Positions 8,615 through 62,578 of a stretch of DNA of 64,000 nt are shown in pieces. Position 1 is the first letter of the stretch. Every line of letters begins with the position of its first letter. The DNA comes from Parcubacteria group bacterium GW2011_GWC1_36_108. GTDB taxonomy: Bacteria; Patescibacteriota; Minisyncoccia; Moranbacterales; GWC2-37-73. The stretch spans positions 26,235-90,234 of the forward strand of contig LBRD01000004.1 in NCBI GenBank assembly GCA_000991245.1. Direction: 5' to 3'. The notes under the pieces are model-generated. The model was not told the DNA's origin. It did no database searches and was given only the letters and a program-made list of their open reading frames with translations. Both the position numbers and the translations under genes were made by a program.

Positions 8615-8695
8615 ATGTTTCTTATTTTTTCACTAGAAACAAGTCACGCTAGCGTTATGTCAAAAGTTGCAATTGTTTCTCCGTGACAAAAATTA
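8615..8695 (+). repeat. palindromic repeat family 2, copy a
   Basis: Core is ttttttcact[ta][ag]aaacaagtc...gtcaaaagttgcaattgttt..gtgacaaaaa. Other copies are at 19425-19530 and 51601-51700. Confidence 0.6.
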
Positions 8696-19424: not shown

Positions 19425-19530
19425 GAGCGAAAATACTTTTTCTTTTTTCACTTAAAACAAGTCTCTTTGGTGTTATGTCAAAAGTTGCAATTGTTTTTCT
19501 GTGACAAAAAGAAAAAGGTATTTTGAGCAA
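19425..19530 (+). repeat. palindromic repeat family 2, copy b
   Basis: ctttttcttttttcacttaaaacaagtctc...gtcaaaagttgcaattgtttttctgtgacaaaaagaaaaagg with imperfect terminal inverted repeats. Confidence 0.6.
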
Positions 19531-44264: not shown

Positions 44265-44837
44265 CTATTTTTTGCCAAGACTCTTGAGCGCAAGTTTCAC
44301 TCTTTCTCCGACATCTTTAATGTCATTTGAAATCAATTTTAAGGCTTCGCGAGATTCACTGACAGAATATCCCATCGCCACCAATGCCTCAAAAGCATCT
44401 GAGTCGCTTTCGAGTTGTGCTTTTTCGCCGCTTGGCATATTGGTGATTTTGTTTTTCAGTTCCAAAATAACGCGCTGCGCAATTTTCTTTCCAACGCCAG
44501 AAACTCTGGTCAAAATCGATGGGTCTTCATTGAGAACTGCCATACTGATTGTTTTCGGATCAGCAATTGCCAAAATCCCCATCGCAGCTTTTGGTCCGAT
44601 TCCTGAAATAGAAATCAGGAGTTCAAACATTTCAAGTTCTGCAATCTCCAAAAAACCATAGAGTGCCAACGTGTCTTCTCGCACATAAGTATGCGTATAA
44701 AGTTCTATGTCAGATTTTCCAGCCACCATTCCAAAAGTATGCACGGTCACAAAAACTTTGTACCCAACACCACTGACATCAACAATGACATAATTGTCGT
44801 GCATTAAATCAATTTTACCTCGAAGCTTTGCTATCAT
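44265..44837 (-). CDS. ruvA: Holliday junction helicase subunit RuvA
   Basis: IAKLRGKI start, HhH motifs GIGPKAA and VSGVGKKIAQRV, and the C-terminal domain III. Confidence 0.85.
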   Translation of the reverse strand: MIAKLRGKIDLMHDNYVIVDVSGVGYKVFVTVHTFGMVAGKSDIELYTHTYVREDTLALYGFLEIAELEMFELLISISGIGPKAAMGILAIADPKTISMAVLNEDPSILTRVSGVGKKIAQRVILELKNKITNMPSGEKAQLESDSDAFEALVAMGYSVSESREALKLISNDIKDVGERVKLALKSLGKK

Positions 44838-44900
44838 CCTTTTCTAAATAATTTTAAATTTTAAATTTAAAATTTAAAATGAATTTTTAATTGATAAATT

Positions 44901-47285
44901 TTAAATTATCAAACACGCGGTACACCCACCACCACAGTCTTTGCCTGTTTCATTTCCATTTTGAATACCATCCGAGCAAGTCGGAGTTACCACTACTGGC
45001 TCTTGTTCTGGTTCCGGCTCTGGCTCGGGCTCTTCTTTCGGTTTGAAATATTCTTCTTTGCATTCCAAAGTTGGAATAGGATCAAGATCTTTGTTCTTTT
45101 TCTTGTCTTTTTTAAACCAATCTTGCACACCCTTTTCCCAATTTTTATATTGAGAATCATCGGATGGATCTTTTGGATAATCTCCTCGTGGATCATCTTT
45201 TTTCACATAAAATAAAATACTGTGAACTTCCCCGAATGTTTTTTTGTCTGAAGTTCCATCAGGACAAGAATCATTTGCCAAGCAATAATCTCCTTTGTAA
45301 TCCTTGGCATCCATTTCGCACACCTTTACATCTTCTTTAATGTCTTGTTCTCCATTGAGAATTGGTTTGCCGGCATCTTCTTTTTCATATTTTGGAAATT
45401 GTTCAGCCGCACTGTTTCCCAATGCAAAATTCATAAACGATCTCCAAATCGGAGCAGCCACATAAATTCCATCAGCACCGACTTTCATAGAGGAGTTGTC
45501 ATTGTTTCCAGCCCAAACCCCCACTGCAATTGACGGCGTGTACCCCATTGCCCAACCATCGCGAAATTCATTGGTTGTTCCAGTCTTGGCCGCAACTTGG
45601 CGATCTGAAAATTTGAAAGGATTATTGTCTCCAAACACAGGTGCTCTGAGTTCATTGGTCGACATAATATAATCAAGCATAGCAACATATTTTTCTTCAA
45701 CAATTCTTTGCCCAGCGCTTTGTTTGAATTCTTCCAAAACCGCTCCGTCCTTATCTTGAATTTTCAAAATTGCAGTTTTGTCATAGTGAATTCCTCCTGT
45801 GGCCAAACCACCATACGCATTAACGTGATCAAGTAATGTCACTTCTCCACCTCCGAGTACCAAAGACAAACCGTATCGTTCAGGTTGATTGAGACCTTTT
45901 ATTCCAAGCCCTTTTGCAAGTTGAATTGAATCTTTCACTCCTGCCAAATACAAAGTTTTCACAGCAGGAATGTTGAGCGACATAGCCAATGCATTTTTCA
46001 TTTGAAGCGGTCCTTTGAATTTTCCATCATAATTTTGCGGCTTGTAATCTTTTCCTTCATCGGTACTAAAGTTTGTTGCCACATCATATAATAATGTTTC
46101 TGGGGTGTAACCTTTCGTAAAAGCTGTCAGATAAACATATGGTTTAAATGAAGACCCCGGTTGACGATCAGCCAAAGCCACGTTAACTTGCCCATCAATT
46201 GATTTGTCAAAATAATTTTTCGAGCCAACCATCGCCAAAATTTGTCCAGTTTTTGGATCCATTGCTACCAACGCTGCATTGCTGGCATTTTGAGCTTTGT
46301 TTTTTTCAGCTCCTTCTACGACTGCTTTTTCTGCTGCCTTCTGTTTGTCCCAATCAAGCGTAGTATAAACTTTTAGTCCTCCTTGCTCTACCGCCTGTTC
46401 TCCATATTTCTGTTCCAAATATTCTTTTACATACATCACAAAATGAGGAGCTTGAATATTATCTTGTTTTGGAGTTATTGCTGCAAAGATATCCACGCCT
46501 TTAGCTTCGTCTGCCTGCTCTTGCGTGATATATCCCAAATCAGCCATTTTTCTAAGTGCAGAATTTTTTCTTCCAACTAAAGCATCCCGATGAGAACCAA
46601 AAGGCGAATAATACGTTGGCGCGTTTGGCAGTGAAGCCAAAAGAACAGCCTCAGCAAGATTTAAATCCTTTGCTGATTTTGAAAAAAATGTTTGAGCTGC
46701 CGCTTCAATCCCATAGGCACTTGAACCATACGGAATTTGATTAAGATACATTGCTAAGATTTCATCTTTGGAATATTTTTGCTCCAATTCTATAGCAAGA
46801 ATAACTTCTTTTATTTTTCGCGTGAATGTTTTCTCGTCACTAAGCAATGATTTTTTAATAAACTGCTGTGTAATCGTGCTACCACCTTGTGCAGCCCCAC
46901 CTTTTATAATATCTTTAAAAGCTGATCGCAAAATAGCTTTCGGGTTTACTCCGAAATGCGAATAAAATTCCTGATCTTCCAAAGCAATAGTCGCATACTT
47001 CACATTATCCGGAATTTGCGCAAAAGGTATAACTGTTCTTTTCTCCTCCCCGTGTACATCATACAAAAGATGCTCACCGGAGCGATCGTAAATTTTGGTT
47101 GATTGCGCAATCAGTTTTGCATCCACCGAATTTGCACTCGGCAAATCCTTGGCAAAATACAAAAAGATTCCAACTACACTTAAAAATCCAACACCAAAAA
47201 GATACAGGGAAATTTTCCCTACAATTTTCCATTTATCTTTATTGGAAGAACTTTTAAAATTTCTTGAAATAAATATTTGATTCAT
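44901..47285 (-). CDS. class A penicillin-binding protein (glycosyltransferase+transpeptidase) with a PE-repeat linker and Cys-rich tail
   Basis: GT51 motifs (EDQEFYSHFGV, GGSTITQQ) and the transpeptidase SxxK/SxN-type blocks. The C-terminus is EPEPEPEPEQEP followed by CSDGIQNGNETGKDCGGGCTAC. Confidence 0.85.
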   Translation of the reverse strand: MNQIFISRNFKSSSNKDKWKIVGKISLYLFGVGFLSVVGIFLYFAKDLPSANSVDAKLIAQSTKIYDRSGEHLLYDVHGEEKRTVIPFAQIPDNVKYATIALEDQEFYSHFGVNPKAILRSAFKDIIKGGAAQGGSTITQQFIKKSLLSDEKTFTRKIKEVILAIELEQKYSKDEILAMYLNQIPYGSSAYGIEAAAQTFFSKSAKDLNLAEAVLLASLPNAPTYYSPFGSHRDALVGRKNSALRKMADLGYITQEQADEAKGVDIFAAITPKQDNIQAPHFVMYVKEYLEQKYGEQAVEQGGLKVYTTLDWDKQKAAEKAVVEGAEKNKAQNASNAALVAMDPKTGQILAMVGSKNYFDKSIDGQVNVALADRQPGSSFKPYVYLTAFTKGYTPETLLYDVATNFSTDEGKDYKPQNYDGKFKGPLQMKNALAMSLNIPAVKTLYLAGVKDSIQLAKGLGIKGLNQPERYGLSLVLGGGEVTLLDHVNAYGGLATGGIHYDKTAILKIQDKDGAVLEEFKQSAGQRIVEEKYVAMLDYIMSTNELRAPVFGDNNPFKFSDRQVAAKTGTTNEFRDGWAMGYTPSIAVGVWAGNNDNSSMKVGADGIYVAAPIWRSFMNFALGNSAAEQFPKYEKEDAGKPILNGEQDIKEDVKVCEMDAKDYKGDYCLANDSCPDGTSDKKTFGEVHSILFYVKKDDPRGDYPKDPSDDSQYKNWEKGVQDWFKKDKKKNKDLDPIPTLECKEEYFKPKEEPEPEPEPEQEPVVVTPTCSDGIQNGNETGKDCGGGCTACLII

Positions 47286-47458
47286 ATTAAAATACTAACT
47301 TAGTAAATTACTTCGCAAAAGAAGTTACTTTCTAAATATATTATATGCTTAAAACGGCTTTTTTCAAAGCCGCTCTAGTATACAGGAAACTGATTATTTA
47401 TCAAGAGAAAAAAGAAAAAACAATCAACTAGTGATTGTTTTTTCAATAAAACTTTTTA

Positions 47459-48328
47459 TCAAACACTTTTATGCTGTTTTTGTCTTTTTTTAATAGCATA
47501 TTTAATAATGTATTCGGCTGGATTTATTCCAGTTATTAATTTGAATTTTTCCCACTGTGGAGAGACATTAACTTCAATGACATAGGTTTTTCCTTCATAT
47601 TCAAACAGATCCACGCCCGCTATTTCATAGTCCATCGCTGCTGTTGATTCCAAGGCAACTTTTTTCATCTCTACGCTAACCTCTATTTTTTCAGCTTTGG
47701 TTCCACGAATATTGGATTTATATTGCCCTTCATTAATAAAACGTTGAAACCCACCGATAACTTCGCCACCGACAACAAAGATTCTAAAATCATTTACGAT
47801 TGGAAAATATTGTTGCGCTAAATATTCAGTTGTATTTTTTTCAAAAAATTCCAGCGCTTCGTTGGCTGTGTTTAATTTCTGAATCCCCCTACCCTTTCTT
47901 CCAAAAATCGGTTTAGCAATAATAGGAAATTCTACGTCTTCTGTTAACCTTTTCCATCCTTCAAAATTATTAGCTTGAAATGTTGCTGGATGATCGATAC
48001 CACATTCAAAAAGTCTTTTGGCTTGATGCATTTTTCCTCGCACATAACCGCCAGCGAGTGATTGTTCAATAACTATTTTATCATTATCTACCAGCATTTC
48101 AGCTAATAGCTGTGCTTCATAAATATGATTATTATATCCCCTGAAAATAACCACATCAAAATCGCAGATGTCCAACTCGCCACACATCGCTGCAAGATTG
48201 TCACCAATAGTTTCAAAAGTAATTTCCGAAAATTTACAGACTATTCCTTGATGACCAGCTTTTTCAATAGCATCAAGCAAATCTTGAGTGTTTTCAGTTA
48301 GTGAACCAATGATAATAAATTTCAACAT
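47459..48328 (-). CDS. RimK-like ATP-grasp amidoligase
   Basis: 289 aa. FPIIAKPIFGRKGRGI, FRIFVVGGEVIGG and GVDLFEYEGKTYVIEVNVSP follow the RimK order of ATP-grasp motifs. Confidence 0.7.
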   Translation of the reverse strand: MLKFIIIGSLTENTQDLLDAIEKAGHQGIVCKFSEITFETIGDNLAAMCGELDICDFDVVIFRGYNNHIYEAQLLAEMLVDNDKIVIEQSLAGGYVRGKMHQAKRLFECGIDHPATFQANNFEGWKRLTEDVEFPIIAKPIFGRKGRGIQKLNTANEALEFFEKNTTEYLAQQYFPIVNDFRIFVVGGEVIGGFQRFINEGQYKSNIRGTKAEKIEVSVEMKKVALESTAAMDYEIAGVDLFEYEGKTYVIEVNVSPQWEKFKLITGINPAEYIIKYAIKKRQKQHKSV

Positions 48329-48342
48329 ATTTTTAAATTATA

Positions 48343-49311
48343 TTAAGCAATGTTTTCAATAAAAGCATCAAAATCTTTCTGTTGTAATTCCTTATCGTTA
48401 AGCGCTTCGATCAAACAAAGGCCTGGAACAGAATTCATTTCAATAAAAAGTGGTTCACCTTTTTCGTTAAAAAAGAAATCCAAAGAATATTGAGCACGCG
48501 CAAACATTTTTAATTTTGCAGTAATTTTTTCTGTTACATCCAAAACACTTTGCGGTATTTTCTCAAGCGGAACACGTTTACTCGTTGCTCCCTGATGCAT
48601 ATTAGTAAACAGAGACCCTCCTTGAGCAATTCGAGAAAGAGCATAAAGTGGCTGGTGATTAATGTAAGTAATTCTAAGATCTGCCAATTCACCTTTTTCA
48701 GAAAATCCAGGAATACCATTTTCATTTTTAACAAATTCTTGTAACAGCATCGGATAAATAAACTTTTCTTTTAAAATAGTTTCTTTATTACCAATAACAA
48801 TACCAAATCCGCCAGAGCCCTGAAGAGGTTTGGCAACAATTTTTGATGTTTTTATTTTTTCAATTGCAATTTTCAGGTCATTTAAGTTCATTGCCACGAA
48901 TGTTTTCGGCATATATTCAGAAAACAAAGCGTACTGCGAAAGTTTACTATCAACCATGGCTCGAAAAAGCGGATTATTAAAAACGATTGAATTGCTGGCC
49001 ATAGCCATTTTTAAATCAAACAACTTATGCTCGCTAGAGCCAGGCGTCTTATCATAAATAAGATCAGCTGTGATTTCTTTTTCAACTCTTTGCCATTTGC
49101 CGCTCCTAAAAGCCCATGCCTTGATAAAAATATTTTTCTTGATATCATACCAATCCACACTTGCACGATACATTTGAATATTTTTTTCAAGCGCCATAGT
49201 GTGCCATTTTTCAAAAGCTCTTCTTGTTTCTTCGTACGATATTGGAATTTCCCTATCCCAATCATCGCCTGTATAAATAACAACTATGTTTTTACTTTTT
49301 TCGTTTTCCAT
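48343..49311 (-). CDS. ATP-grasp domain protein (second ligase of the cluster)
   Basis: 322 aa. IVAKPLQGSGGFGI, ADLRITYINHQPLYA and IEMNSVPG are ATP-grasp blocks. The gene is 14 bp from the upstream gene. Confidence 0.65.
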   Translation of the reverse strand: MENEKSKNIVVIYTGDDWDREIPISYEETRRAFEKWHTMALEKNIQMYRASVDWYDIKKNIFIKAWAFRSGKWQRVEKEITADLIYDKTPGSSEHKLFDLKMAMASNSIVFNNPLFRAMVDSKLSQYALFSEYMPKTFVAMNLNDLKIAIEKIKTSKIVAKPLQGSGGFGIVIGNKETILKEKFIYPMLLQEFVKNENGIPGFSEKGELADLRITYINHQPLYALSRIAQGGSLFTNMHQGATSKRVPLEKIPQSVLDVTEKITAKLKMFARAQYSLDFFFNEKGEPLFIEMNSVPGLCLIEALNDKELQQKDFDAFIENIA

Positions 49312-49322
49312 AAAATACTTTA

Positions 49323-50765
49323 TTAACTAACTTTATTCACATCAATTAAAAACTTTCCCAGATTTCTCCTACCGATGATAGCAGCATATTTAAGTTCATC
49401 TCTGGCGGCAATATTAACATTCGCATTTATTGCAAAGTTATCCATAACAAAAGTCATTTTTACTTTTGGCCTAAAAGACACACCGTTAGATGCATAGATT
49501 AAATCTATGTCATAAAGATCGCTGTGTTTATATTTATTTTTCAAGCCCTTAAGAATTTCTGGTCCTTCTTCTCTGGAAAATCCGTTTGGCAATTCAATTT
49601 TTTCAAAAAAATCCAAAACATCGCCATAGCCAAGCTGTCTAGCCATATCAATATCAATAGAAGTTGACATTGCACCCGTATCAATTTTGGCCTCAATTTC
49701 TATAGTTGCTTCATTTTTTCCAATAAATTTAACTTTTTCTACTGTGCCAATAACTTTTCGTCCAGAAATTTCTTCGACTTCTTCTTCAACTTCTCCTCCG
49801 AATAAATCTCTTCCTACGCGCACACCGCGCGCTGCTGTTTTTATTTTAAGACCCTTGATGCGCTCAAGTCTTTCTTTAAGACCACTGAGGTTTGCAACTT
49901 GAATAGCAAGACCCGGACGAGCATTGATTTCCAAAAAAACCGGACCGCGCTCGCGATCAATCGCAACATCAGCGCCCAAAAATCCCATCCCTGAAACTTC
50001 CTGCGCTTTTACAGCTAAAAGTAAAATATCTTTCCAATATGGAATTCGAATTCCTGAAAGAAGCATTCTGGTGCCTGGGACATAATCAATAATTTTTCCT
50101 TTACCCAAAACTGCAGTCGTGGTCACGCCTGAAGCTAAGTCAATTCCCACTCCGATACCTCCTTGCTGCAAATTAGCTTTTCCTCCAGATTCTTTTGTTG
50201 GAAGACGAAGCATCGCCATTACTGGTATATGATTAAAAACAATCACGCGGATATCAGGAATTCCTTTATATGCATACGGCTTAAAAAGTTTAAGCAAAGT
50301 CAAACGTTCTTCAAAAAAAGCAATGTCTGGCATATTAGCCAATGAAAATGCTCCATCCAAAATATTTAAAATATGACTCTTGATATCTTCCACTGTAACT
50401 TTGCTGCCATCAGCTTTAATCCAAACAGGCAACGGTATTTCATTTTCATCACTTACTAAAACTTTTCCACTATTTTTCTTTCTGCCATACACTACCATAA
50501 TTCCACCTCCGCCATATCCACGATTTGGCTTAAGCGCAAAAGAAGACGGCAAAGAAGACCAGTCGAAATTTTCCAATTCCTCGGCTGTTCTGATTTTTGC
50601 AAGCAATTTTGGCACAGGAATTCCACCTTTTTTAAGCATCCTCTTGCTTAAAATTTTATCGTCTGCCAATTTTTTTGCTTTTTTTCTATTGTATGGACGA
50701 ATGTAATCAAGGTTACGAGCATTCATGCCAAGCAACTTATTTCCATTCTTAAAAATTTCAAACAT
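49323..50765 (-). CDS. alpha-L-glutamate ligase-like ATP-grasp (ATPgrasp_ST) fused to a retropepsin-like Zn_protease domain
   Basis: The N-terminal LGMNARNLDYIRPYNRKKAKKLADDKILSKRML...GGIPVP matches my memory of the rimK-related alpha-L-glutamate-ligase family. The C-terminal ~150 aa with KIDTGAMSTSIDI (DTG motif) resembles the PF05618 putative ATP-dependent zinc protease. Confidence 0.65.
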   Translation of the reverse strand: MFEIFKNGNKLLGMNARNLDYIRPYNRKKAKKLADDKILSKRMLKKGGIPVPKLLAKIRTAEELENFDWSSLPSSFALKPNRGYGGGGIMVVYGRKKNSGKVLVSDENEIPLPVWIKADGSKVTVEDIKSHILNILDGAFSLANMPDIAFFEERLTLLKLFKPYAYKGIPDIRVIVFNHIPVMAMLRLPTKESGGKANLQQGGIGVGIDLASGVTTTAVLGKGKIIDYVPGTRMLLSGIRIPYWKDILLLAVKAQEVSGMGFLGADVAIDRERGPVFLEINARPGLAIQVANLSGLKERLERIKGLKIKTAARGVRVGRDLFGGEVEEEVEEISGRKVIGTVEKVKFIGKNEATIEIEAKIDTGAMSTSIDIDMARQLGYGDVLDFFEKIELPNGFSREEGPEILKGLKNKYKHSDLYDIDLIYASNGVSFRPKVKMTFVMDNFAINANVNIAARDELKYAAIIGRRNLGKFLIDVNKVS

Positions 50766-50775
50766 AAAAAAATTA

Positions 50776-50865
50776 TGTCATTCCGGACTCGATCCGGAAT
50801 CCCGAGCTTTAACGCACAAACCGTTATGCTACGAGAGATCCTGAAACAAATTCAGGATGACACAG
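50776..50865 (+). repeat. divergent GC-rich hairpin element related to copies A-C
   Basis: tgtcattccggactcgatccggaatcc hairpin plus atcctgaaacaaattcaggat hairpin. The ends TGTCATTCC and GGATGACACA form inverted termini. Confidence 0.5.
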
Positions 50866-50868
50866 TGA

Positions 50869-51534
50869 TTACTTTAAATTCTTCAGCACTTCCCTAAAAC
50901 GAAAATATTCATTCAAGCGCAAGCCATCCCATTTCCCTAAAAAGATATTAATTGGAATTGTAATTAAAATCAGCCATGGGAAAGCTACAATGCCTTTTAT
51001 CAATGCTGGCCAACTTGCCAAATAATATCCAACAAGAGAAATTACCAATGTTTCCACCGCCAAAATGAGAGCTGCGCGATTTCCCTTTTCAATTTGAGCT
51101 GCCACAAATTTTTCCACGATCGTAATCATAATCAAAATTGGGAAAATTGAAACTGCAGCTAAACCGGTTCGCTGCATTGCTCCTCCAAAACTAAGCAGCA
51201 TCAAAATTGAAAGTGCAATAATGCTAAGTGTGATGGCCACGCGCGGCAGATACAAAATACGAAGACCTTTCAGTGCAAAGCGCAGCAGCATTCCAACCAA
51301 AATCACCACAATAAAAATAAGAACGCCGTAGCGAAGTTGTGGTACAGCCAAGAAAGCAAAGGTCACGATCGCAGGCGTATAAATACCAAAAGCCTTAATT
51401 CCGATTACCTGACGAAAAAAAGCGATCAACGTTACCACAATTGGCAACATTAAAAGCAAGATAACCGTATCAAGCGGCACACCTTGTGCAATAAAATATT
51501 TAATGAGAGGACTGATGTTTTCCATAATTTTCAT
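50869..51534 (-). CDS. 7-TM membrane protein (candidate 7TM partner of the ATP-grasp operon)
   Basis: Seven hydrophobic helices were counted by eye. It is the first gene of the operon with three ATP-grasp genes immediately downstream. The start is chosen at MKIM, and the upstream MLYVTCS codons coincide with the ATGTTACATG box. Confidence 0.55.
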   Translation of the reverse strand: MKIMENISPLIKYFIAQGVPLDTVILLLMLPIVVTLIAFFRQVIGIKAFGIYTPAIVTFAFLAVPQLRYGVLIFIVVILVGMLLRFALKGLRILYLPRVAITLSIIALSILMLLSFGGAMQRTGLAAVSIFPILIMITIVEKFVAAQIEKGNRAALILAVETLVISLVGYYLASWPALIKGIVAFPWLILITIPINIFLGKWDGLRLNEYFRFREVLKNLK

Positions 51535-51600
51535 AGAGCATGTAACATATAACATGCAACATTAACTCAAAACAATAAGATTACAAATCAAAAAAACGAA

Positions 51601-51700
51601 CTAGAATGCTTTTTCTTTTTTCACTTAAAACAAGTCTCATTGGCGCTGGGTCAAAAGTTGCAATTGTTTTTCTGTGAAAAAAGAAAAATGTATTCTAGTG
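51601..51700 (+). repeat. palindromic repeat family 2, copy c
   Basis: ctagaatgctttttcttttttcacttaaaacaagtctc...gtcaaaagttgcaattgtttttctgtgaaaaaagaaaaatgtattctag with clear terminal inverted repeats. Confidence 0.6.
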
Positions 51701-51721
51701 AGCTACAATTAAGGCAAACTA

Positions 51722-52267
51722 TCAACAATTATTTTTAATTTCTCTCATTTTTCTGCTATTTAAATGACATAGTGCTATTGCAATTGCATCAGCGGTGTCA
51801 TCTGGTTTGGGAATCTCTTTCAATTTCAAAATATTCTTTACCATTAGCTGTATTTGCTTCTTTTCTGCCCTACCGTAACCAGTCAAGGCTTGTTTGACTT
51901 GCAGCGGTGTGTATTCAAATATGCTAACACAAAATCTCTCAAGTGTCAAGAGTATAGACCCTCGAGCTTGGCTTACTTTCATTACCGTTTTTACATTCTT
52001 AAAAAAGAACAAATCTTCCACTGCAGCCTCATCAGGCTTATATTTTTCAATTATTTGTTCTAAATCCTTCACAACTTCAAAAAGGCGTTCGGCTGTGCTG
52101 TTTTTTGGTGAAGTTGTGATGTGCCCATAAGCAATTGATGTCACACATCCTTTCTTTTCATCCAAAATAGCCCAGCCAACAATAGCAGTCCCAGGATCAA
52201 CCCCTAAAACTCTTAGAGTTTTAGGGGAATTTTTAATTTTTAATTTTGAATTTTTAATCAATTCCAA
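51722..52267 (-). CDS. ruvC: crossover junction endodeoxyribonuclease RuvC
   Basis: LGVDPGTAIVGWAIL, AAVEDLFF and ADAIAIALCH match RuvC catalytic blocks. The start codon is uncertain. The ORF opens with TTG in AT-rich sequence. Confidence 0.8.
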   Translation of the reverse strand: MELIKNSKLKIKNSPKTLRVLGVDPGTAIVGWAILDEKKGCVTSIAYGHITTSPKNSTAERLFEVVKDLEQIIEKYKPDEAAVEDLFFFKNVKTVMKVSQARGSILLTLERFCVSIFEYTPLQVKQALTGYGRAEKKQIQLMVKNILKLKEIPKPDDTADAIAIALCHLNSRKMREIKNNC

Positions 52268-53072: not shown

Positions 53073-53292
53073 ATTTTTCATGGATCATAAAACATGGAAC
53101 ATTGAACAAAAATGCAAATCATTTTTATCTTGCTTCATGCTATATGCTTTATGTTATGTGATCTATGAGCTAAGTCTACCACCCTAAACTACTCATTTCA
53201 AGCCACAGGCTTTGACAATAACCCTTTTTCAAATTACGATGGACATATCAAACTTGTTATTAATATAACTTACATACAAAAGGAGGTTCGCA

Positions 53293-54284: not shown

Positions 54285-54320
54285 ACCGTCTCGCGCAAAC
54301 TACGCGAGACGGTTTTTTTA
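54285..54320. terminator. bidirectional terminator
   Basis: accgtctcgcgcaaactacgcgagacggttttttta. Confidence 0.6.
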
Positions 54321-56369
54321 TTTGAAAATAAAATTAAAAATCATATTCAATCCTGAATTAATTTCAGAAAAAATATTTTTCAAAAATAAAATTGCATAAT
54401 GCTCTTTTTCTGGGATTTGTGGGGTGAAAAAATATATGCCATCAACTTCCCGCACAGCCCGTGTCTCATTCACACGTGGAACACCTTTTAATAATTCAAT
54501 TCTGATATCGTCATTACTGGCTGAAATTAATTTATTTTCTCTCTTAACCTCAACCAACGCAACTGCTTCTTCATAATCACTTTTACCAGTGTTTTGAATT
54601 TCTGATGACAGATGACTGACAGCGGATAACACAATACTTGTTTCTTTTTGATTACCGATTGCTGATGACTGATGACTTTCTGCTTTTTCACCGCCAATCC
54701 ACCCCCAACCACTTTTTATTTTTTCATACACTTCGCCCTCTTTGATCCCCTCAACTTTTTTATATTTCACTTCATATGCAACTTTTCCATCAGGATATCT
54801 GAGCTGAATTTTAGATTTGGTGTTGTTAAGTGTGAAACTCGAAACATCACTCCTGATTTCCTTGGATTTATCTTTTTTAATAATCACATCTTCTCCAATA
54901 GGATGATTAATAAATTTTTTCCAGCCAGTTGCAATACTCCAACCACTCAAATTTATTTTATTTTTTGATTTGTTTTGCACGGTAATATATTCAACTCCCG
55001 TGTCAGCGCCAGTAGGATTAGCGCTGATGGCAATGATTTTTACTTCCGGATGCGGAAATTTTTTAACTTCCACAACAAAATTTTGCAAAACATCTTCGCT
55101 GCCATCAGACAATTTCACGGAGCCATTATATGTGCCAACATTTTCATATTTATGTCTGGTTTTTGCCAAAGAACTTTTGTGTCCATCTCCAAAATCCCAG
55201 CTTATTTTTATTTTATCCCCATCTCTGTCGCCGCTTGAGACAGAAAAATCAGCATAAACATTAGCAAAAACATCTTCATCGATTTTTACTTTTCCATACG
55301 GTTGGCTATTAAAAATGTTTTCTTTCCCCTCTGTTAAAAATTGACTCCAAGACCAAACGCTCCCATCAAAATTATAAGAACGTCCCTTTTTCGCACTGCC
55401 TTCATAGCTAACACTAAAAACAGGAACCAGATCGATAGGGTTATATAGTCCAAGAAATTCTCCCTGCGTGTCATTAAGTGCTAGTGTACATTTTTTGTCA
55501 GCATCATTTTTCAAAGTCAAAAATCTTGAGATTGTGGGATCAATAATATTCCCAGTCAAAGCGCAAGTTTTTCCTGCTCTGTCTTTTAAATACCAACCTT
55601 CCAAATTTTCAGTTTTATCGCTTGAACTATAAAGTTCCACAAATTCTTCCAGCCCAGAGTTTTTCAAAGGAGCAGGAAAAATTTCATTGATAATTATTCT
55701 GTCTGAATATGTTTTTGATTCTGATTCGTTTTTTTCTTCTTCCTCATCTTCCTCTTTTATGCATAATGCTAATTCTTCAGTATTTATAATGGTTGAATTT
55801 TTTGGAAAATAATCAGAAACTACCAAAAAATTATCCTCTACATCTTTTTTTAGAACTTTAGACACCATTAGATTTTCAGAATATAGATGTGATCCAGAAA
55901 AAGAATGTGCATTATTTCCCCATGTTATCGAATCAATAATTTCATCTTCATCAACAAATGCAATGCTATAATTTTCAGAAAGCGTAGCTCCAGTTGATTG
56001 ATCTGATTTGATTGCATTAGCAAAATCAGCGTTACCCCAAAGAAAATACCCCTTAGCACTAATAGTTGTATTCGCAGATAAAACTTTTATAGATGATTCT
56101 GTTCCAGAATTTGTCCTTTTTCTTAATTTCCAACCAGATATATCAATTTCCTCACAACTTGTATTATATATTTCTATAAAATCATCATTAGCGTTAATTC
56201 CCTTGATTTGTACTGCGCTTATTATGGCTGCATTGTCAGCCTTGCAACTATTATTAACAAAAACAAAAAGCGCCACAAAGAGCAGCACTAATGGTGTTTG
56301 ATATTTAAATGATTTTTTAATCCGTAACTGAAAAAAGTCACGGACTTTTTGTTTTTGTCTTGATTTCAC
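54318..56369 (-). CDS. large secreted protein with three lamin-tail-like (LTD) domains and a PKD domain
   Basis: Signal peptide. Three copies of the LTD-type pattern: DFIEIYNTS...ISGWKL, EFVELYSSS...LEGWYL and EYITVQNKS...LSGWSI. WDFGDGH is the PKD signature. Confidence 0.65.
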   Translation of the reverse strand: MKSRQKQKVRDFFQLRIKKSFKYQTPLVLLFVALFVFVNNSCKADNAAIISAVQIKGINANDDFIEIYNTSCEEIDISGWKLRKRTNSGTESSIKVLSANTTISAKGYFLWGNADFANAIKSDQSTGATLSENYSIAFVDEDEIIDSITWGNNAHSFSGSHLYSENLMVSKVLKKDVEDNFLVVSDYFPKNSTIINTEELALCIKEEDEEEEKNESESKTYSDRIIINEIFPAPLKNSGLEEFVELYSSSDKTENLEGWYLKDRAGKTCALTGNIIDPTISRFLTLKNDADKKCTLALNDTQGEFLGLYNPIDLVPVFSVSYEGSAKKGRSYNFDGSVWSWSQFLTEGKENIFNSQPYGKVKIDEDVFANVYADFSVSSGDRDGDKIKISWDFGDGHKSSLAKTRHKYENVGTYNGSVKLSDGSEDVLQNFVVEVKKFPHPEVKIIAISANPTGADTGVEYITVQNKSKNKINLSGWSIATGWKKFINHPIGEDVIIKKDKSKEIRSDVSSFTLNNTKSKIQLRYPDGKVAYEVKYKKVEGIKEGEVYEKIKSGWGWIGGEKAESHQSSAIGNQKETSIVLSAVSHLSSEIQNTGKSDYEEAVALVEVKRENKLISASNDDIRIELLKGVPRVNETRAVREVDGIYFFTPQIPEKEHYAILFLKNIFSEINSGLNMIFNFIFK

Positions 56370-62420: not shown

Positions 62421-62578
62421 ACTAAGTCATATAACATGAAACATATAGCATGTAACATGAATACAAAAAAATTGTTTTTATTTTTATTTACAAAGTTATT
62501 ATACCCCAAAAATGCTTTTTGGACAAAAGAAAAACGACCAGTAAGAACTGCTCGCTTAGTTATTATCAAAAAAAATTA

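What the first reader, a model, noticed from the sequence alone, without database searches (positions are those of the whole stretch)
47459..51555. Operon of a 7-TM protein plus three ATP-grasp amidoligases, one fused to a retropepsin-like protease domain
Four co-directional, tightly spaced genes make up the unit. Gaps are 11-15 bp, except ~100 bp after the first gene.
- A 7-helix membrane protein.
- A 480-aa protein whose N-terminus looks like the rimK-related alpha-L-glutamate-ligase-like ATP-grasp, and whose C-terminus carries a DTG-containing Zn_protease/retropepsin-like domain.
- A second ATP-grasp protein.
- A RimK-like ATP-grasp protein.

This matches the comparative-genomics prediction of peptide-tagging or peptide-metabolite systems built from RimK-like ligases, a Zn_protease and a 7TM partner. 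To my knowledge no such system has been characterised biochemically, and a three-ligase version with the protease fused to a ligase is unusual. It could ligate amino acids onto a protein or peptide, or build a small poly-amino-acid that the 7TM protein exports or senses. The operon is preceded by the ATGTTACATG box and repeat-2c.
Basis: partly seen in the sequence, partly recalled or inferred. Interest (0 to 1): 0.78.

Follow-up and report, generated by a model that had tools for sequence, protein, structure and literature searches.

The report
Rlo-like ligase–protease–7TM operon, Moranbacteria
The four genes are real and form a Candidate-Phyla-Radiation version of the recently described Pseudomonas rlo (and related rim) ligase/retropepsin systems; it matters mainly because the ligase and protease are fused here and the extra ligases sit in a rapidly changing cassette, though its chemical product is still unknown.

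Summary
Four co-directional minus-strand genes (47459-51555) encode:
- a 7-TM PF14402 protein;
- a 480-aa ATPgrasp_ST/RloC-like ligase fused to a retropepsin domain with K-I-D-T-G-A;
- a GshB/RimK-like ATP-grasp;
- a RimK-family ATP-grasp.

The unit ends in a hairpin terminator.

The kind is no longer uncharacterised: rloABC (mBio 2025) and RimB/RimK and RimBK hybrids (JBC 2025) are its relatives, and those proteases cleave poly-glutamate.

This locus differs from them in three ways:
- The 7TM protein lacks the transglutaminase domain.
- The protease is cytoplasmic and fused C-terminally to an RloC-type ligase, through an invariant acidic linker (GGE-V-EEE-V-EE-ISG).
- Two further ligases follow.

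In about 30 Moranbacteria/Parcubacteria genomes the 7TM + fusion pair is always adjacent, and it is as conserved as the neighbouring housekeeping genes. The downstream slot holds 0-4 variable genes: four ATP-grasp families, GT4, YdjC, MATCAP and a Mur-ligase-like gene. MATCAP and YdjC also occur fused to the core protein elsewhere.

Best reading: a membrane-associated machine that builds and trims a Glu-rich peptide or conjugate, tailored by accessory ligases. The product is unproven. Verdict: a new variant of a known kind, of moderate interest.

The parts
50869..51525 (-). g1: 7-TM membrane protein (218 aa; the longest ORF runs to 51555). RloB-like 7TM module without the transglutaminase domain; predicted N-out/C-in, with a conserved cytoplasmic tail GKWDGLRLxEYxRFR.
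   Evidence: PF14402 at 2.8e-29 and NCBIfam RloB positions 305-508 only. Seven hydrophobic segments and a positive C-tail. Homologues are 218 aa. The tail motif is shared with L032, L034, L035 and canonical RloB in L036.
50766..50868 (-). 103-nt structured spacer between g1 and g2: a three-way junction that looks like a REP/MITE-type insertion.
   Evidence: MFE -38.9 kcal/mol, z = -5.3. No tRNA and no Rfam family. The same element lies at the same site in L007; its arms are dispersed in L018 and L033. It is absent from the closest relatives L037 and L038, where the gaps are 8 and 41 bp.
49803..50765 (-). g2 N-domain (aa 1-321): RloC-type ATP-grasp ligase (ATPgrasp_ST / rimK_rel_E_lig). The pre-ATP-grasp domain is truncated and replaced by a conserved LGMNARN..YIRPYN segment. 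The catalytic K79, D266, E279 and N281 are invariant.
   Evidence: PF14397 at 1.1e-63; TIGR02291 at 271 bits (cut-off 314). The rimK_fam model aligns g2 residues 20-100 to model positions 69-147. AF2 plus Foldseek top hits are ArgX/LysX, RimK, PsnB and Ddl.
49761..49802 (-). Invariant acidic linker F322-G-G-E-V-E-E-E-V-E-E-I-S-G335 between the ligase and protease domains; predicted disordered.
   Evidence: Invariant in 31 sequences of 68-89% identity. The pattern E-h-E-x-E-h-E-x-h-[ST]-G is kept in fusions at or below 50% identity. pLDDT is below 50 for residues 325-340.
49326..49760 (-). g2 C-domain (aa 336-480): RimB/RloA-type retropepsin-like aspartic peptidase. The K-I-D-T-G-A motif lies at aa 360-365 (nt 49671-49688). 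R432 and R455 match the poly-Glu-binding arginines of RloA.
   Evidence: PF05618 at 5e-5 and RloA3 at 8.8e-7. Profile hits against PDB: 9g58 1e-9, 9g59 3e-9, 2pma 2e-7, Ddi1 0.014.
48343..49311 (-). g3: GshB/RimK-like ATP-grasp amino-acid ligase (322 aa); an accessory, fast-evolving gene.
   Evidence: RimK 3.4e-13 and GSH-S_ATP 1e-11. PDB hits: RimK 7qys 1.5e-6 and GshB 1gsa 1.2e-5, with the D...E-x-N motif aligned. g3-like genes are present in 16 loci at 26-49% identity.
47459..48328 (-). g4: RimK-family alpha-L-glutamate-ligase-like ATP-grasp (289 aa); an accessory gene.
   Evidence: PF08443 at 1e-31; TIGR00768 at 136.7 bits, just under its 143.4 cut-off; MptN 6e-36, LysX 6e-28, CofF 8e-22. 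PDB hit: RimK 5zct 7e-17. g4-like genes occur in only 12 loci.
47414..47444 (-). Intrinsic-terminator-like hairpin (13-bp stem plus a T-run) that ends the unit. A strong promoter-like site for the next gene (PBP1A) follows at 47340-47367.
   Evidence: sequence read.
51539..51562 (-).
   Evidence: Similar heptad runs lie upstream of yebC (53102) and of another gene (62444), so the motif is not specific to this operon.
51609..51694 (-). It has 15-bp perfect terminal inverted repeats.
   Evidence: a copy at 19436-19522 (92% identity) and a partial copy at 8659-8691.

Best explanation
This is a Patescibacteria (Candidatus Moranbacteria) form of the Rlo/Rim class of systems, in which an ATP-grasp ligase is paired with a retropepsin-like peptidase.

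Shown by computation:
- A cytoplasmic RloC-type ATP-grasp ligase is covalently fused to a RimB/RloA-type aspartic peptidase. The peptidase keeps the catalytic D-T-G-A motif and the Lys/Arg residues that bind poly-glutamate in RloA.
- The fusion gene is always adjacent to a 7-TM RloB-like membrane protein.
- This pair is as conserved as the neighbouring housekeeping genes.
- Downstream lies a fast-changing cassette of extra ligases and other tailoring or trimming enzymes. In this window the cassette consists of g3 and g4.

Inferred:
- The ligase domain uses ATP to add L-glutamate, or another acidic residue, stepwise to a carboxylate. This gives an oligo- or poly-alpha-glutamate chain or tail.
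- The attached peptidase domain acts as a dimer and cuts that chain at the site of synthesis. It thereby sets chain length or releases product, as RimB does for RimK.
- g4 (a RimK/MptN/CofF/LysX-like Glu ligase) and g3 (GshB/RimK-like) prime or extend the chain with further residues, so the exact product differs between lineages.
- The 7-TM protein holds the complex at the membrane through its conserved cytoplasmic tail, and either exports or presents the product to the envelope.
For: Domains and catalytic residues.

Known biochemistry and genetics of the relatives:
- RloA and RimB cleave poly-Glu. Deleting rloB or rloC suppresses loss of the RloA proteases. RimB stimulates poly-Glu synthesis by RimK. 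A RimBK hybrid is active (PMC12239564; PMC11957791).

Conserved adjacency of 7TM and fusion:
- About 28 Moranbacteria/Parcubacteria loci keep the pair adjacent.
- The pair is also adjacent in unrelated contexts: L030 (mraZ/rsmH...groEL), L032 (rplKAJL), and the non-CPR loci L034 and L035.

Mean identity to the window over 19 complete loci:
- g2 N-domain 74.9%, 7TM 70.6%.
- Housekeeping neighbours: RuvC 71.8%, YebC 67.2%, PBP1A 66.5%.
- g2 C-domain 48.5%, g3 38.2%.

The accessory cassette holds 0-4 genes drawn from four ATP-grasp families plus GT4, YdjC, MATCAP and a Mur-ligase-like gene.

Fusion ('Rosetta-stone') evidence from elsewhere:
- ATPgrasp_ST + retropepsin + MATCAP (P0134, P0207).
- ATPgrasp_ST + retropepsin + YdjC (P0138).
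- Retropepsin + 7TM_transglut (P0250).

The unit is bounded by its own terminator.
Against: - No product, substrate or activity has been measured for any RloC-type ligase or 7TM_transglut protein, here or in Pseudomonas. Poly-Glu is an extrapolation from the protease's relatives.
- TIGR02291 scores 271 bits, below its 314-bit cut-off. g2 also lacks most of the pre-ATP-grasp (acceptor-binding) domain, so its acceptor may be quite different from RimK's.
- The protease domain evolves fast (40-61% identity). Its flap region falls into at least three sequence types, so its specificity may not be poly-Glu.
- The AF2 model of the 7TM protein was unusable (pLDDT 56). Export versus anchoring versus sensing is therefore unresolved.
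- One genome (L022) has no accessory ligase next to the core, so g3 and g4 are not obligatory partners.
- Much of the synteny evidence comes from one clade. Within that clade, conserved order could partly reflect vertical inheritance.
Confidence: 0.6

Rival explanations
1. A cell-wall peptide pathway. The ATP-grasp ligases would build or modify a peptidoglycan stem peptide or cross-bridge, or an envelope-linked anionic peptide. They would work with the adjacent PBP1A and the nearby FemAB, LytR_C and Mur-ligase genes. The 7TM protein would act as a flippase-like partner.
For: - PBP1A follows the unit in nearly all Moranbacteria loci.
- FemAB, LytR_C and a Mur ligase lie just beyond in L004 and L037.
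- One cassette contains a Mur_ligase_M+C gene (L013).
- rlo mutants in Pseudomonas show beta-lactam sensitivity and cell-shape defects (PMC12239564).
Against: - In the window a strong terminator and a separate promoter-like site lie between g4 and PBP1A.
- PBP1A is inverted in L016 and absent near the pair in L030, L032, L034 and L035.
- None of the ligases reaches Ddl or Mur-type family thresholds.
- A poly-Glu-type retropepsin has no known role in peptidoglycan synthesis.
Confidence: 0.15
2. A cytoplasmic RimK/RimB-type protein-tagging system. [quoted passage not shown] The 7TM protein would only regulate.
For: - g4 is RimK-family: 5zct at 7e-17 and TIGR00768 at 136.7 bits.
- The protease domain has no signal peptide, so it is cytoplasmic like RimB.
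- RimB-RimK hybrids exist.
Against: - The conserved ligase is RloC-type, not RimK. PRK10446 scores 12.9 bits against a cut-off of 331, and rimK_fam scores 50 against 143.
- g4-like genes are missing from most related loci.
- The invariant partner is a membrane protein.
- The domain order is the opposite of RimBK.
- No S6 gene or poly-Glu-tailed protein was found in the window; the only acidic run is EEDEEEE in an LTD-domain protein.
Confidence: 0.1
3. A RiPP (graspetide-like) maturation cluster. ATP-grasp enzymes would modify a ribosomal precursor peptide, the protease would remove a leader, and the 7TM protein would export the product.
For: ATP-grasp + protease + membrane protein is a common RiPP layout. 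PsnB (a graspetide ligase) appears among the structural neighbours of g2.
Against: - There is no room for a precursor-peptide gene. The gaps are 11 and 14 bp, and the 103-bp spacer is a structured repeat without an ORF.
- The only graspetide-family hit is insignificant (GRASP_w_spasm, E = 0.064).
- The ligases group with the RimK/GshB/LysX amidoligases.
Confidence: 0.03

Closest known systems
rloABC operon of Pseudomonas aeruginosa (Lormand et al., mBio 2025, PMC12239564)
   Same: - It has the same three protein families in one operon: a PF05618 retropepsin with D-T-G-A and conserved Lys/Arg channel residues, a PF14402 7-TM protein, and an ATPgrasp_ST / TIGR02291-type cytoplasmic ligase.
- The 7TM cytoplasmic tail motif G-[KRS]-[WY]-x-G-x-R-[LV]-x-E-x-x-R-F is shared with a canonical RloB (L036).
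   Different: - The protease is not secreted. It is the C-terminal domain of the ligase, so it is cytoplasmic.
- The 7TM protein lacks the periplasmic inactive-transglutaminase domain.
- Two extra ATP-grasp genes follow.
- The host is a CPR bacterium without an outer membrane, whereas the paper reports RloB as 96% proteobacterial.
- An invariant acidic linker precedes the protease domain.
- The ligase scores below the TIGR02291 equivalog cut-off.
RimK-RimB and the RimBK hybrid enzyme (Little et al., JBC 2025, PMC11957791)
   Same: - A cytoplasmic retropepsin-like peptidase is physically coupled, by complex or by fusion, to an ATP-grasp alpha-L-glutamate ligase.
- The protease motifs are conserved.
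- g4 is itself RimK-family.
   Different: - The fused ligase is RloC-type (ATPgrasp_ST with a truncated pre-ATP-grasp domain), not RimK.
- The domain order is ligase then protease, the reverse of RimBK.
- There is an obligatory 7-TM partner.
- No evidence links this locus to ribosomal protein S6.
ATP-grasp amidoligase systems predicted by comparative genomics (Iyer, Abhiman, Burroughs and Aravind 2009, cited as ref. 35 in PMC12239564; Pfam families ATPgrasp_ST, 7TM_transglut, Zn_protease)
   Same: The same Pfam families and the same predicted theme of peptide or peptide-conjugate synthesis. My account of that paper's content is recalled from memory, because the paper could not be retrieved.
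   Different: The present locus adds the fused architecture, the TGase-less 7TM protein and the hypervariable accessory cassette seen in Moranbacteria.
Tubulin TTL/TTLL ligases with MATCAP-type carboxypeptidases (a functional analogy only)
   Same: A ligate-and-trim cycle on acidic C-terminal tails, run by an ATP-grasp ligase and a dedicated peptidase. MATCAP-family (PF08014) genes occur in some related cassettes and are fused to the core protein elsewhere.
   Different: There is no MATCAP gene in this window. The bacterial substrates are unknown. The similarity is in logic, not in demonstrated chemistry.

Membership tests
Rlo system (rloABC) | Retropepsin-like PF05618 peptidase with a catalytic D-T-G-A motif and a basic substrate channel | tested here: met
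   K360-I-D-T-G-A365, R432 and R455 are conserved. The C-domain profile hits RloA-type structures 9g58 and 9g59 at 1e-9 and 3e-9. RloA3 HMM scores 8.8e-7.
Rlo system (rloABC) | The peptidase carries an N-terminal signal peptide and is secreted or periplasmic | tested here: not met
   The peptidase is residues 336-480 of a 480-aa protein. That protein has no hydrophobic segment, and its N-terminus is a cytoplasmic ATP-grasp domain.
Rlo system (rloABC) | RloB: a seven-TM PF14402 module | tested here: met
   PF14402 at 2.8e-29 (102.8 bits against a gathering score of 25). Seven hydrophobic segments.
Rlo system (rloABC) | RloB: an N-terminal inactive transglutaminase domain facing outward | tested here: not met
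   g1 is 218 aa and aligns only to positions 305-508 of the 508-position RloB model, at 92 bits against a cut-off of 900.
Rlo system (rloABC) | RloC: a cytoplasmic ATP-grasp of the alpha-L-glutamate-ligase-like family (TIGR02291 / PF14397) | tested here: inconclusive
   PF14397 scores 215.5 bits against a gathering score of 31.4, so that test is met. TIGR02291 scores 271.1 bits against a cut-off of 314.2, so the protein is related but below the equivalog threshold.
Rlo system (rloABC) | The three functions are encoded together in one operon | tested here: met
   Gaps are 103, 11 and 14 bp, with a terminator after g4. Adjacency is conserved in about 30 genomes.
Rlo system (rloABC) | Role in hypo-osmotic stress tolerance, with ligase or 7TM loss suppressing protease loss | not testable with these tools
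   This needs genetics, and the organism is uncultured.
RimBK hybrid / RimK-RimB | The ligase is a RimK orthologue (TIGR00768 / PRK10446) | tested here: not met
   For g2, rimK_fam scores 50.3 bits against 143.4 and PRK10446 scores 12.9 against 331.
RimBK hybrid / RimK-RimB | The protease domain is N-terminal to the ligase in the hybrid | tested here: not met
   The protease domain is C-terminal, at aa 336-480. In RimBK the protease is residues 1-163.
RimBK hybrid / RimK-RimB | Acts on the C-terminal Glu tail of ribosomal protein S6 | not tested
RimK family alpha-L-glutamate ligase (for g4) | Scores above the TIGR00768 cut-off and has an intact ATP-grasp catalytic core | tested here: inconclusive
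   TIGR00768 scores 136.7 bits, just under its 143.4 cut-off. PF08443 scores 110 bits against 21. The Lys loop and D...E-x-N motifs align to E. coli RimK 5zct.
Graspetide / RiPP ATP-grasp clusters | An adjacent precursor-peptide gene and a graspetide-type ligase | tested here: not met
   There is no free intergenic coding space. GRASP_w_spasm scores only E = 0.064.

The most novel reading that the evidence does not exclude
Two linked proposals.

1. The invariant acidic linker (GGE-V-EEE-V-EE-ISG) is a built-in pseudo-substrate or autoprocessing site for the attached retropepsin. The enzyme would then be self-regulated in the way retroviral proteases are within Gag-Pol.

2. The conserved 7TM + ligase-protease core is a chassis onto which Moranbacteria swap accessory ATP-grasp ligases, a GT4 glycosyltransferase, a YdjC deacetylase and MATCAP peptidases. 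Lineage-specific acidic peptide or glyco-peptide products for the cell envelope would result. This would be a non-ribosomal, non-NRPS peptide 'assembly kit' in organisms that otherwise have minimal biosynthesis.
Probability: 0.22. Interest if true: 0.75.

Novelty: new variant of a known kind. Interest (0 to 1): 0.5.

Why it matters
The function of the ligase and 7TM partners of the rlo system is an open question in Pseudomonas and Vibrio, where the locus affects osmotic tolerance, beta-lactam sensitivity, biofilm and virulence.

The Moranbacteria form contributes four things:
- **Evidence for coupling.** Independent fusion ('Rosetta-stone') evidence shows that ligase and protease act on the same molecule at the same place.
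- **Dispensable features.** A secreted protease and a transglutaminase domain are not essential to the core mechanism.
- **A simpler target.** It offers a compact, soluble, single-polypeptide ligase-protease for biochemistry.
- **Tailoring enzymes.** The hypervariable accessory cassette, and the fusions to MATCAP and YdjC, point to which tailoring enzymes belong to the pathway.

For CPR biology, a 4-kb ATP-consuming operon conserved as strongly as the DNA-repair genes in roughly 1-Mb genomes suggests an important function, probably related to the envelope.

Tried and rejected
- **AF2 model of the 7TM protein.** Built from 28 homologues, it gave mean pLDDT 56 and pTM 0.44. That is too poor for fold comparison, so no transporter-or-receptor inference was drawn.
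- **Foldseek of the full g2 model against PDB.** It returned only ATP-grasp hits, so the protease domain had to be confirmed by a sequence profile instead.
- **Single-sequence phmmer of g2 or its C-domain against PDB.** Both were insignificant, E = 0.1-0.5.
- **The Iyer et al. 2009 paper.** It could not be retrieved. A search for the Pfam names found nothing useful, and a search for Patescibacteria + ATP-grasp/RimK found no prior description in CPR.
- **The 103-nt g1-g2 spacer.** It looked cloverleaf-like, but ARAGORN found no tRNA and Rfam found no family. It is treated as a repeat-type insertion.
- **An Rfam Histone3 hit at 47351-47395.** It is sub-threshold (25.3 bits against 34) and is just a hairpin upstream of PBP1A.
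- **Search for poly-acidic candidate substrates in the window.** It found only one run, EEDEEEE, in an LTD-domain protein.
- **Cleavage of the linker by a RimB/RloA-like specificity.** The published requirements, at least 6 and at least 8 contiguous Glu, argue against simple cleavage, so this stays a minority hypothesis.
- **Chance adjacency.** Rejected on conservation across genomes.

Full report
**1. The observation**

The region 47459-51555 carries four co-directional minus-strand ORFs of 228, 480, 322 and 289 aa, with gaps of 103, 11 and 14 bp. A 13-bp-stem hairpin with a T-run (47444-47414) follows the last gene. An 11/12 promoter-like site for the next gene lies just beyond it (sequence). 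Upstream lie ruvC and yebC; downstream lie a class-A PBP and ruvA.

Family assignments:
- g1: PF14402 7TM_transglut (2.8e-29). It aligns only to the 7TM half (positions 305-508) of the NCBIfam RloB model.
- g2: PF14397 ATPgrasp_ST (1.1e-63) and TIGR02291 'alpha-L-glutamate ligase-like' (1e-80; 271 bits, under the 314-bit cut-off), plus weak C-terminal hits to PF05618 and to RloA1-3.
- g3: RimK/GSH-S_ATP-like.
- g4: RimK family. PF08443 scores 1e-31 and TIGR00768 scores 136.7 bits against a 143.4 cut-off. The next-best models are MptN, LysX and CofF.

Hydropathy gives seven TM segments in g1 with positive-inside loops, implying N-out/C-in. It gives none in g2-g4. Of 120 g1 homologues nearly all are 218 aa, so the true start is probably ATG 51525.

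**2. The protease domain is real and looks active**

Single-sequence searches were weak. A profile of the C-domain from 29 homologues hits three solved PF05618 proteins: 9g58 (1e-9), 9g59 (3e-9) and 2pma (2e-7). Ddi1 and ApRick retropepsins follow more weakly. 2pma is the Legionella RloA-like protein cited in PMC12239564.

In 31 full-length homologues, D362-T-G-A365, R432 and R455 are invariant and K360 is nearly so. In the alignments to 9g58 these fall on the K-x-D-T-G-A motif and on the two Arg positions. In RloA the corresponding residues (K46, D48, R114, R137) coordinate poly-glutamate and are needed for activity.

**3. The ligases look active**

g2 keeps the Lys loop (ALKPNRGYGGGG) and D266...E279-x-N281 as invariant positions. 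Its AF2 model (mean pLDDT 74) matches ArgX/LysX, RimK, PsnB and Ddl.

HMM coordinates show that g2 residue ~20 corresponds to RimK-family position ~69. Most of the pre-ATP-grasp (acceptor-binding) domain is therefore missing. In its place is a conserved N-terminal LGMNARN..YIRPYN segment that AF2 leaves unmodelled (pLDDT 37-38).

g3 and g4 align to RimK and GshB structures with the catalytic D...E-x-N motifs in place.

**4. What is already known**

NCBIfam's RloA/RloB names led to Lormand et al. 2025 (PMC12239564):
- P. aeruginosa rloABC encodes a secreted retropepsin (RloA), an inactive-transglutaminase-7TM protein (RloB) and a cytoplasmic ATP-grasp (RloC).
- RloA cleaves runs of at least 8 Glu in vitro.
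- Loss of the three RloA paralogues is lethal in low-salt medium, and this is suppressed by deleting rloB or rloC.
- The activities of RloB and RloC are unknown.

Little et al. 2025 (PMC11957791) report:
- RimB is a cytoplasmic retropepsin that removes poly-Glu from S6 and needs at least 6 contiguous Glu.
- RimB stimulates poly-alpha-Glu synthesis by RimK.
- An active RimBK hybrid exists, with the protease N-terminal to RimK.

**5. Comparative genomics**

g2 has more than 119 full-length homologue clusters at 67-90% identity. Wherever a source names them, they are Candidatus Moranbacteria or Patescibacteria.

I collected 38 loci and analysed them with my own ORF/BLASTP scripts. Three results stand out.

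- **Conserved order.** In about 28 Moranbacteria/Parcubacteria genomes the order is yebC - ruvC - 7TM - fusion - (variable) - PBP1A - (ruvA).
- **Conservation of the core.** Over 19 complete loci, mean identity to the window is 74.9% for the g2 ligase domain and 70.6% for the 7TM protein. For comparison, RuvC is 71.8%, YebC 67.2% and PBP1A 66.5%. The protease domain averages 48.5% and g3 38.2%.
- **A variable slot.** The space between the fusion gene and PBP1A holds 0 to 4 genes. They include g3-like ATP-grasps (16 proteins), a second ~330-aa ATP-grasp family absent from the window (14), g4-like RimK proteins (12, sometimes as ~590-aa doubles) and a further RimK-like type. They also include GT4 glycosyltransferases (4 loci), YdjC-like deacetylases (2), MATCAP/PF08014 peptidases (2, plus one non-CPR locus) and a Mur-ligase M+C protein (1). 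L022 has nothing in the slot.

The two closest relatives (L037 at 89% and L038 at 87% identity) have exactly the window's four genes.

The 7TM + fusion pair is also adjacent in unrelated contexts. These are L030 next to mraZ/rsmH and groEL, L032 after rplKAJL with three more ATP-grasps, and L034 and L035 in non-CPR genomes. Their linkage is therefore functional, not only inherited synteny.

**6. Fusions elsewhere tie the parts together**

A search of 1.84 billion representative proteins with the protease domain found only 270 hits at E <= 1e-3. Many of these lie at positions ~305-470 of ~470-aa proteins. Pfam analysis of the longer hits shows:
- ATPgrasp_ST + retropepsin + MATCAP (P0134, P0207);
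- ATPgrasp_ST + retropepsin + YdjC (P0138);
- retropepsin + another ATP-grasp (P0194);
- the known RimBK type (P0184);
- retropepsin + 7TM_transglut (P0250).

Ligase, protease, 7TM and at least two of the accessory enzyme types are thus linked by gene fusion as well as by neighbourhood.

**7. The linker**

Between the two domains of g2 the sequence F-G-G-E-V-E-E-E-V-E-E-I-S-G is invariant in 31 sequences. An E-h-E-x-E-h-E-x-h-[ST]-G pattern persists in fusions at or below 50% identity. AF2 predicts it disordered.

A conserved acidic segment tethered to a protease whose relatives bind poly-Glu suggests a pseudo-substrate or an autoprocessing site. However, it has at most three contiguous Glu, fewer than RimB or RloA require. 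This is speculation, and I give it as the novel case only.

**8. Mechanism**

I commit to the following mechanism at about 0.6 confidence.
- The g2 ligase domain adds acidic residues, most likely L-Glu, in ATP-dependent steps.
- The fused dimeric retropepsin trims or releases the chain where it is made.
- g4 (a Glu-ligase-like enzyme) and g3 prime or extend the chain.
- The 7TM protein docks the complex through its conserved cytoplasmic tail and exports or displays the product.

The tail motif G-[KRS]-[WY]-x-G-x-R-[LV]-x-E-x-x-R-F is shared from the window to canonical RloB.

The domain content, the conservation and the linkage are shown. The substrate, the product and the role of the 7TM protein are inferred.

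GT4 and YdjC genes appear in sister cassettes and in fusions, and Pfam names the ligase family 'sugar-transfer associated'. This leaves open an amino-sugar acceptor in some lineages. That would follow a glycosyltransferase - deacetylase - ligase logic like that of bacillithiol or mycothiol synthesis; this comparison is my own recollection and was not tested.

**9. Rival explanations**

- **Cell-wall peptide pathway (0.15).** The PBP1A/FemAB/Mur neighbourhood and the Pseudomonas phenotypes favour it. Against it are the terminator and promoter between g4 and PBP1A, and the loss of the PBP link in other contexts.
- **S6-type protein tagging (0.10).** g4 and the cytoplasmic protease favour it. Against it are the RloC-type core ligase, the obligatory membrane partner, and the sporadic presence of g4.
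- **RiPP maturation (0.03).** There is no precursor gene and no graspetide-type ligase.

**10. Verdict**

The finding is real, and its gene and domain calls are correct. It is a new variant of a kind that has been known since 2025. What is new:
- an RloC::retropepsin fusion in the reverse order to RimBK;
- a transglutaminase-less RloB;
- a CPR host;
- an invariant acidic linker;
- a hypervariable accessory-enzyme cassette.

Interest is moderate (0.5). A specialist would find the architecture informative, and useful for resolving the rlo mechanism, but not astonishing.

Noticed in passing
window 50766-50868 (-): The 103-nt spacer between g1 and g2 folds into a very stable three-way junction (-38.9 kcal/mol, z = -5.3). 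It is not a tRNA and matches no Rfam family. The same element lies at the same site in L007 (5879-5998), and its arms occur elsewhere in L018 and L033. The closest relatives L037 and L038 lack it. It is probably a REP/MITE-like insertion that could affect relative expression of g1 against g2-g4.
   Followed up: partly
window 51539-51562, 53093-53102, 62428-62459 (-): Tandem heptads ATGTTNC lie immediately upstream of the start codons of at least three minus-strand genes (g1, yebC and one near 62.4 kb). Other Moranbacteria carry different, species-specific short tandem repeats at the equivalent position upstream of the 7TM gene. This may be a lineage-specific promoter or leader motif.
   Followed up: partly
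window 51609-51694; copies at 19436-19522 and 8659-8691: An ~87-bp palindromic dispersed repeat with 15-bp perfect terminal inverted repeats lies in the ruvC-g1 spacer. It may act as a terminator after ruvC.
   Followed up: partly
window 44265-52267 and loci L004, L007-L013: ruvC and ruvA are separated by this operon plus a class-A PBP throughout Moranbacteria. The ligase unit and PBP1A appear to have been inserted into an ancestral ruvC-ruvA pair.
   Followed up: no
P0250, P0134, P0207, P0138, P0167: Unusual architectures occur elsewhere: retropepsin fused N-terminally to a 7TM_transglut module (P0250); ligase-retropepsin-MATCAP triple fusions (P0134, P0207); a ligase-retropepsin-YdjC fusion (P0138); and a class-I LysRS with a C-terminal retropepsin-like segment (P0167, possibly a gene-call artefact).
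   Followed up: partly
L034 5992-7287 and L035 5992-7263: Non-CPR genomes also carry ATPgrasp_ST fused to a short C-terminal retropepsin-like domain, without the acidic linker. In L034 the catalytic Asp is replaced (N-T-G), and a MATCAP peptidase gene follows. Their 7TM partners have a signal peptide plus a ~100-aa low-complexity outer segment in place of a transglutaminase domain.
   Followed up: partly
L009, L012, L013, L015, L017, L022, L029, L033: Several third-party assemblies titled 'uncultured Bdellovibrionales bacterium' share the Moranbacteria gene order and 60-75% protein identity with the window. Their taxonomic labels are probably wrong.
   Followed up: no
window 54318-56369 (-): An LTD/PKD-domain surface-type protein contains the only acidic run in the 64-kb window (EEDEEEE at aa 206). 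LTD-PKD proteins are also conserved a few genes upstream of the operon in related loci.
   Followed up: no
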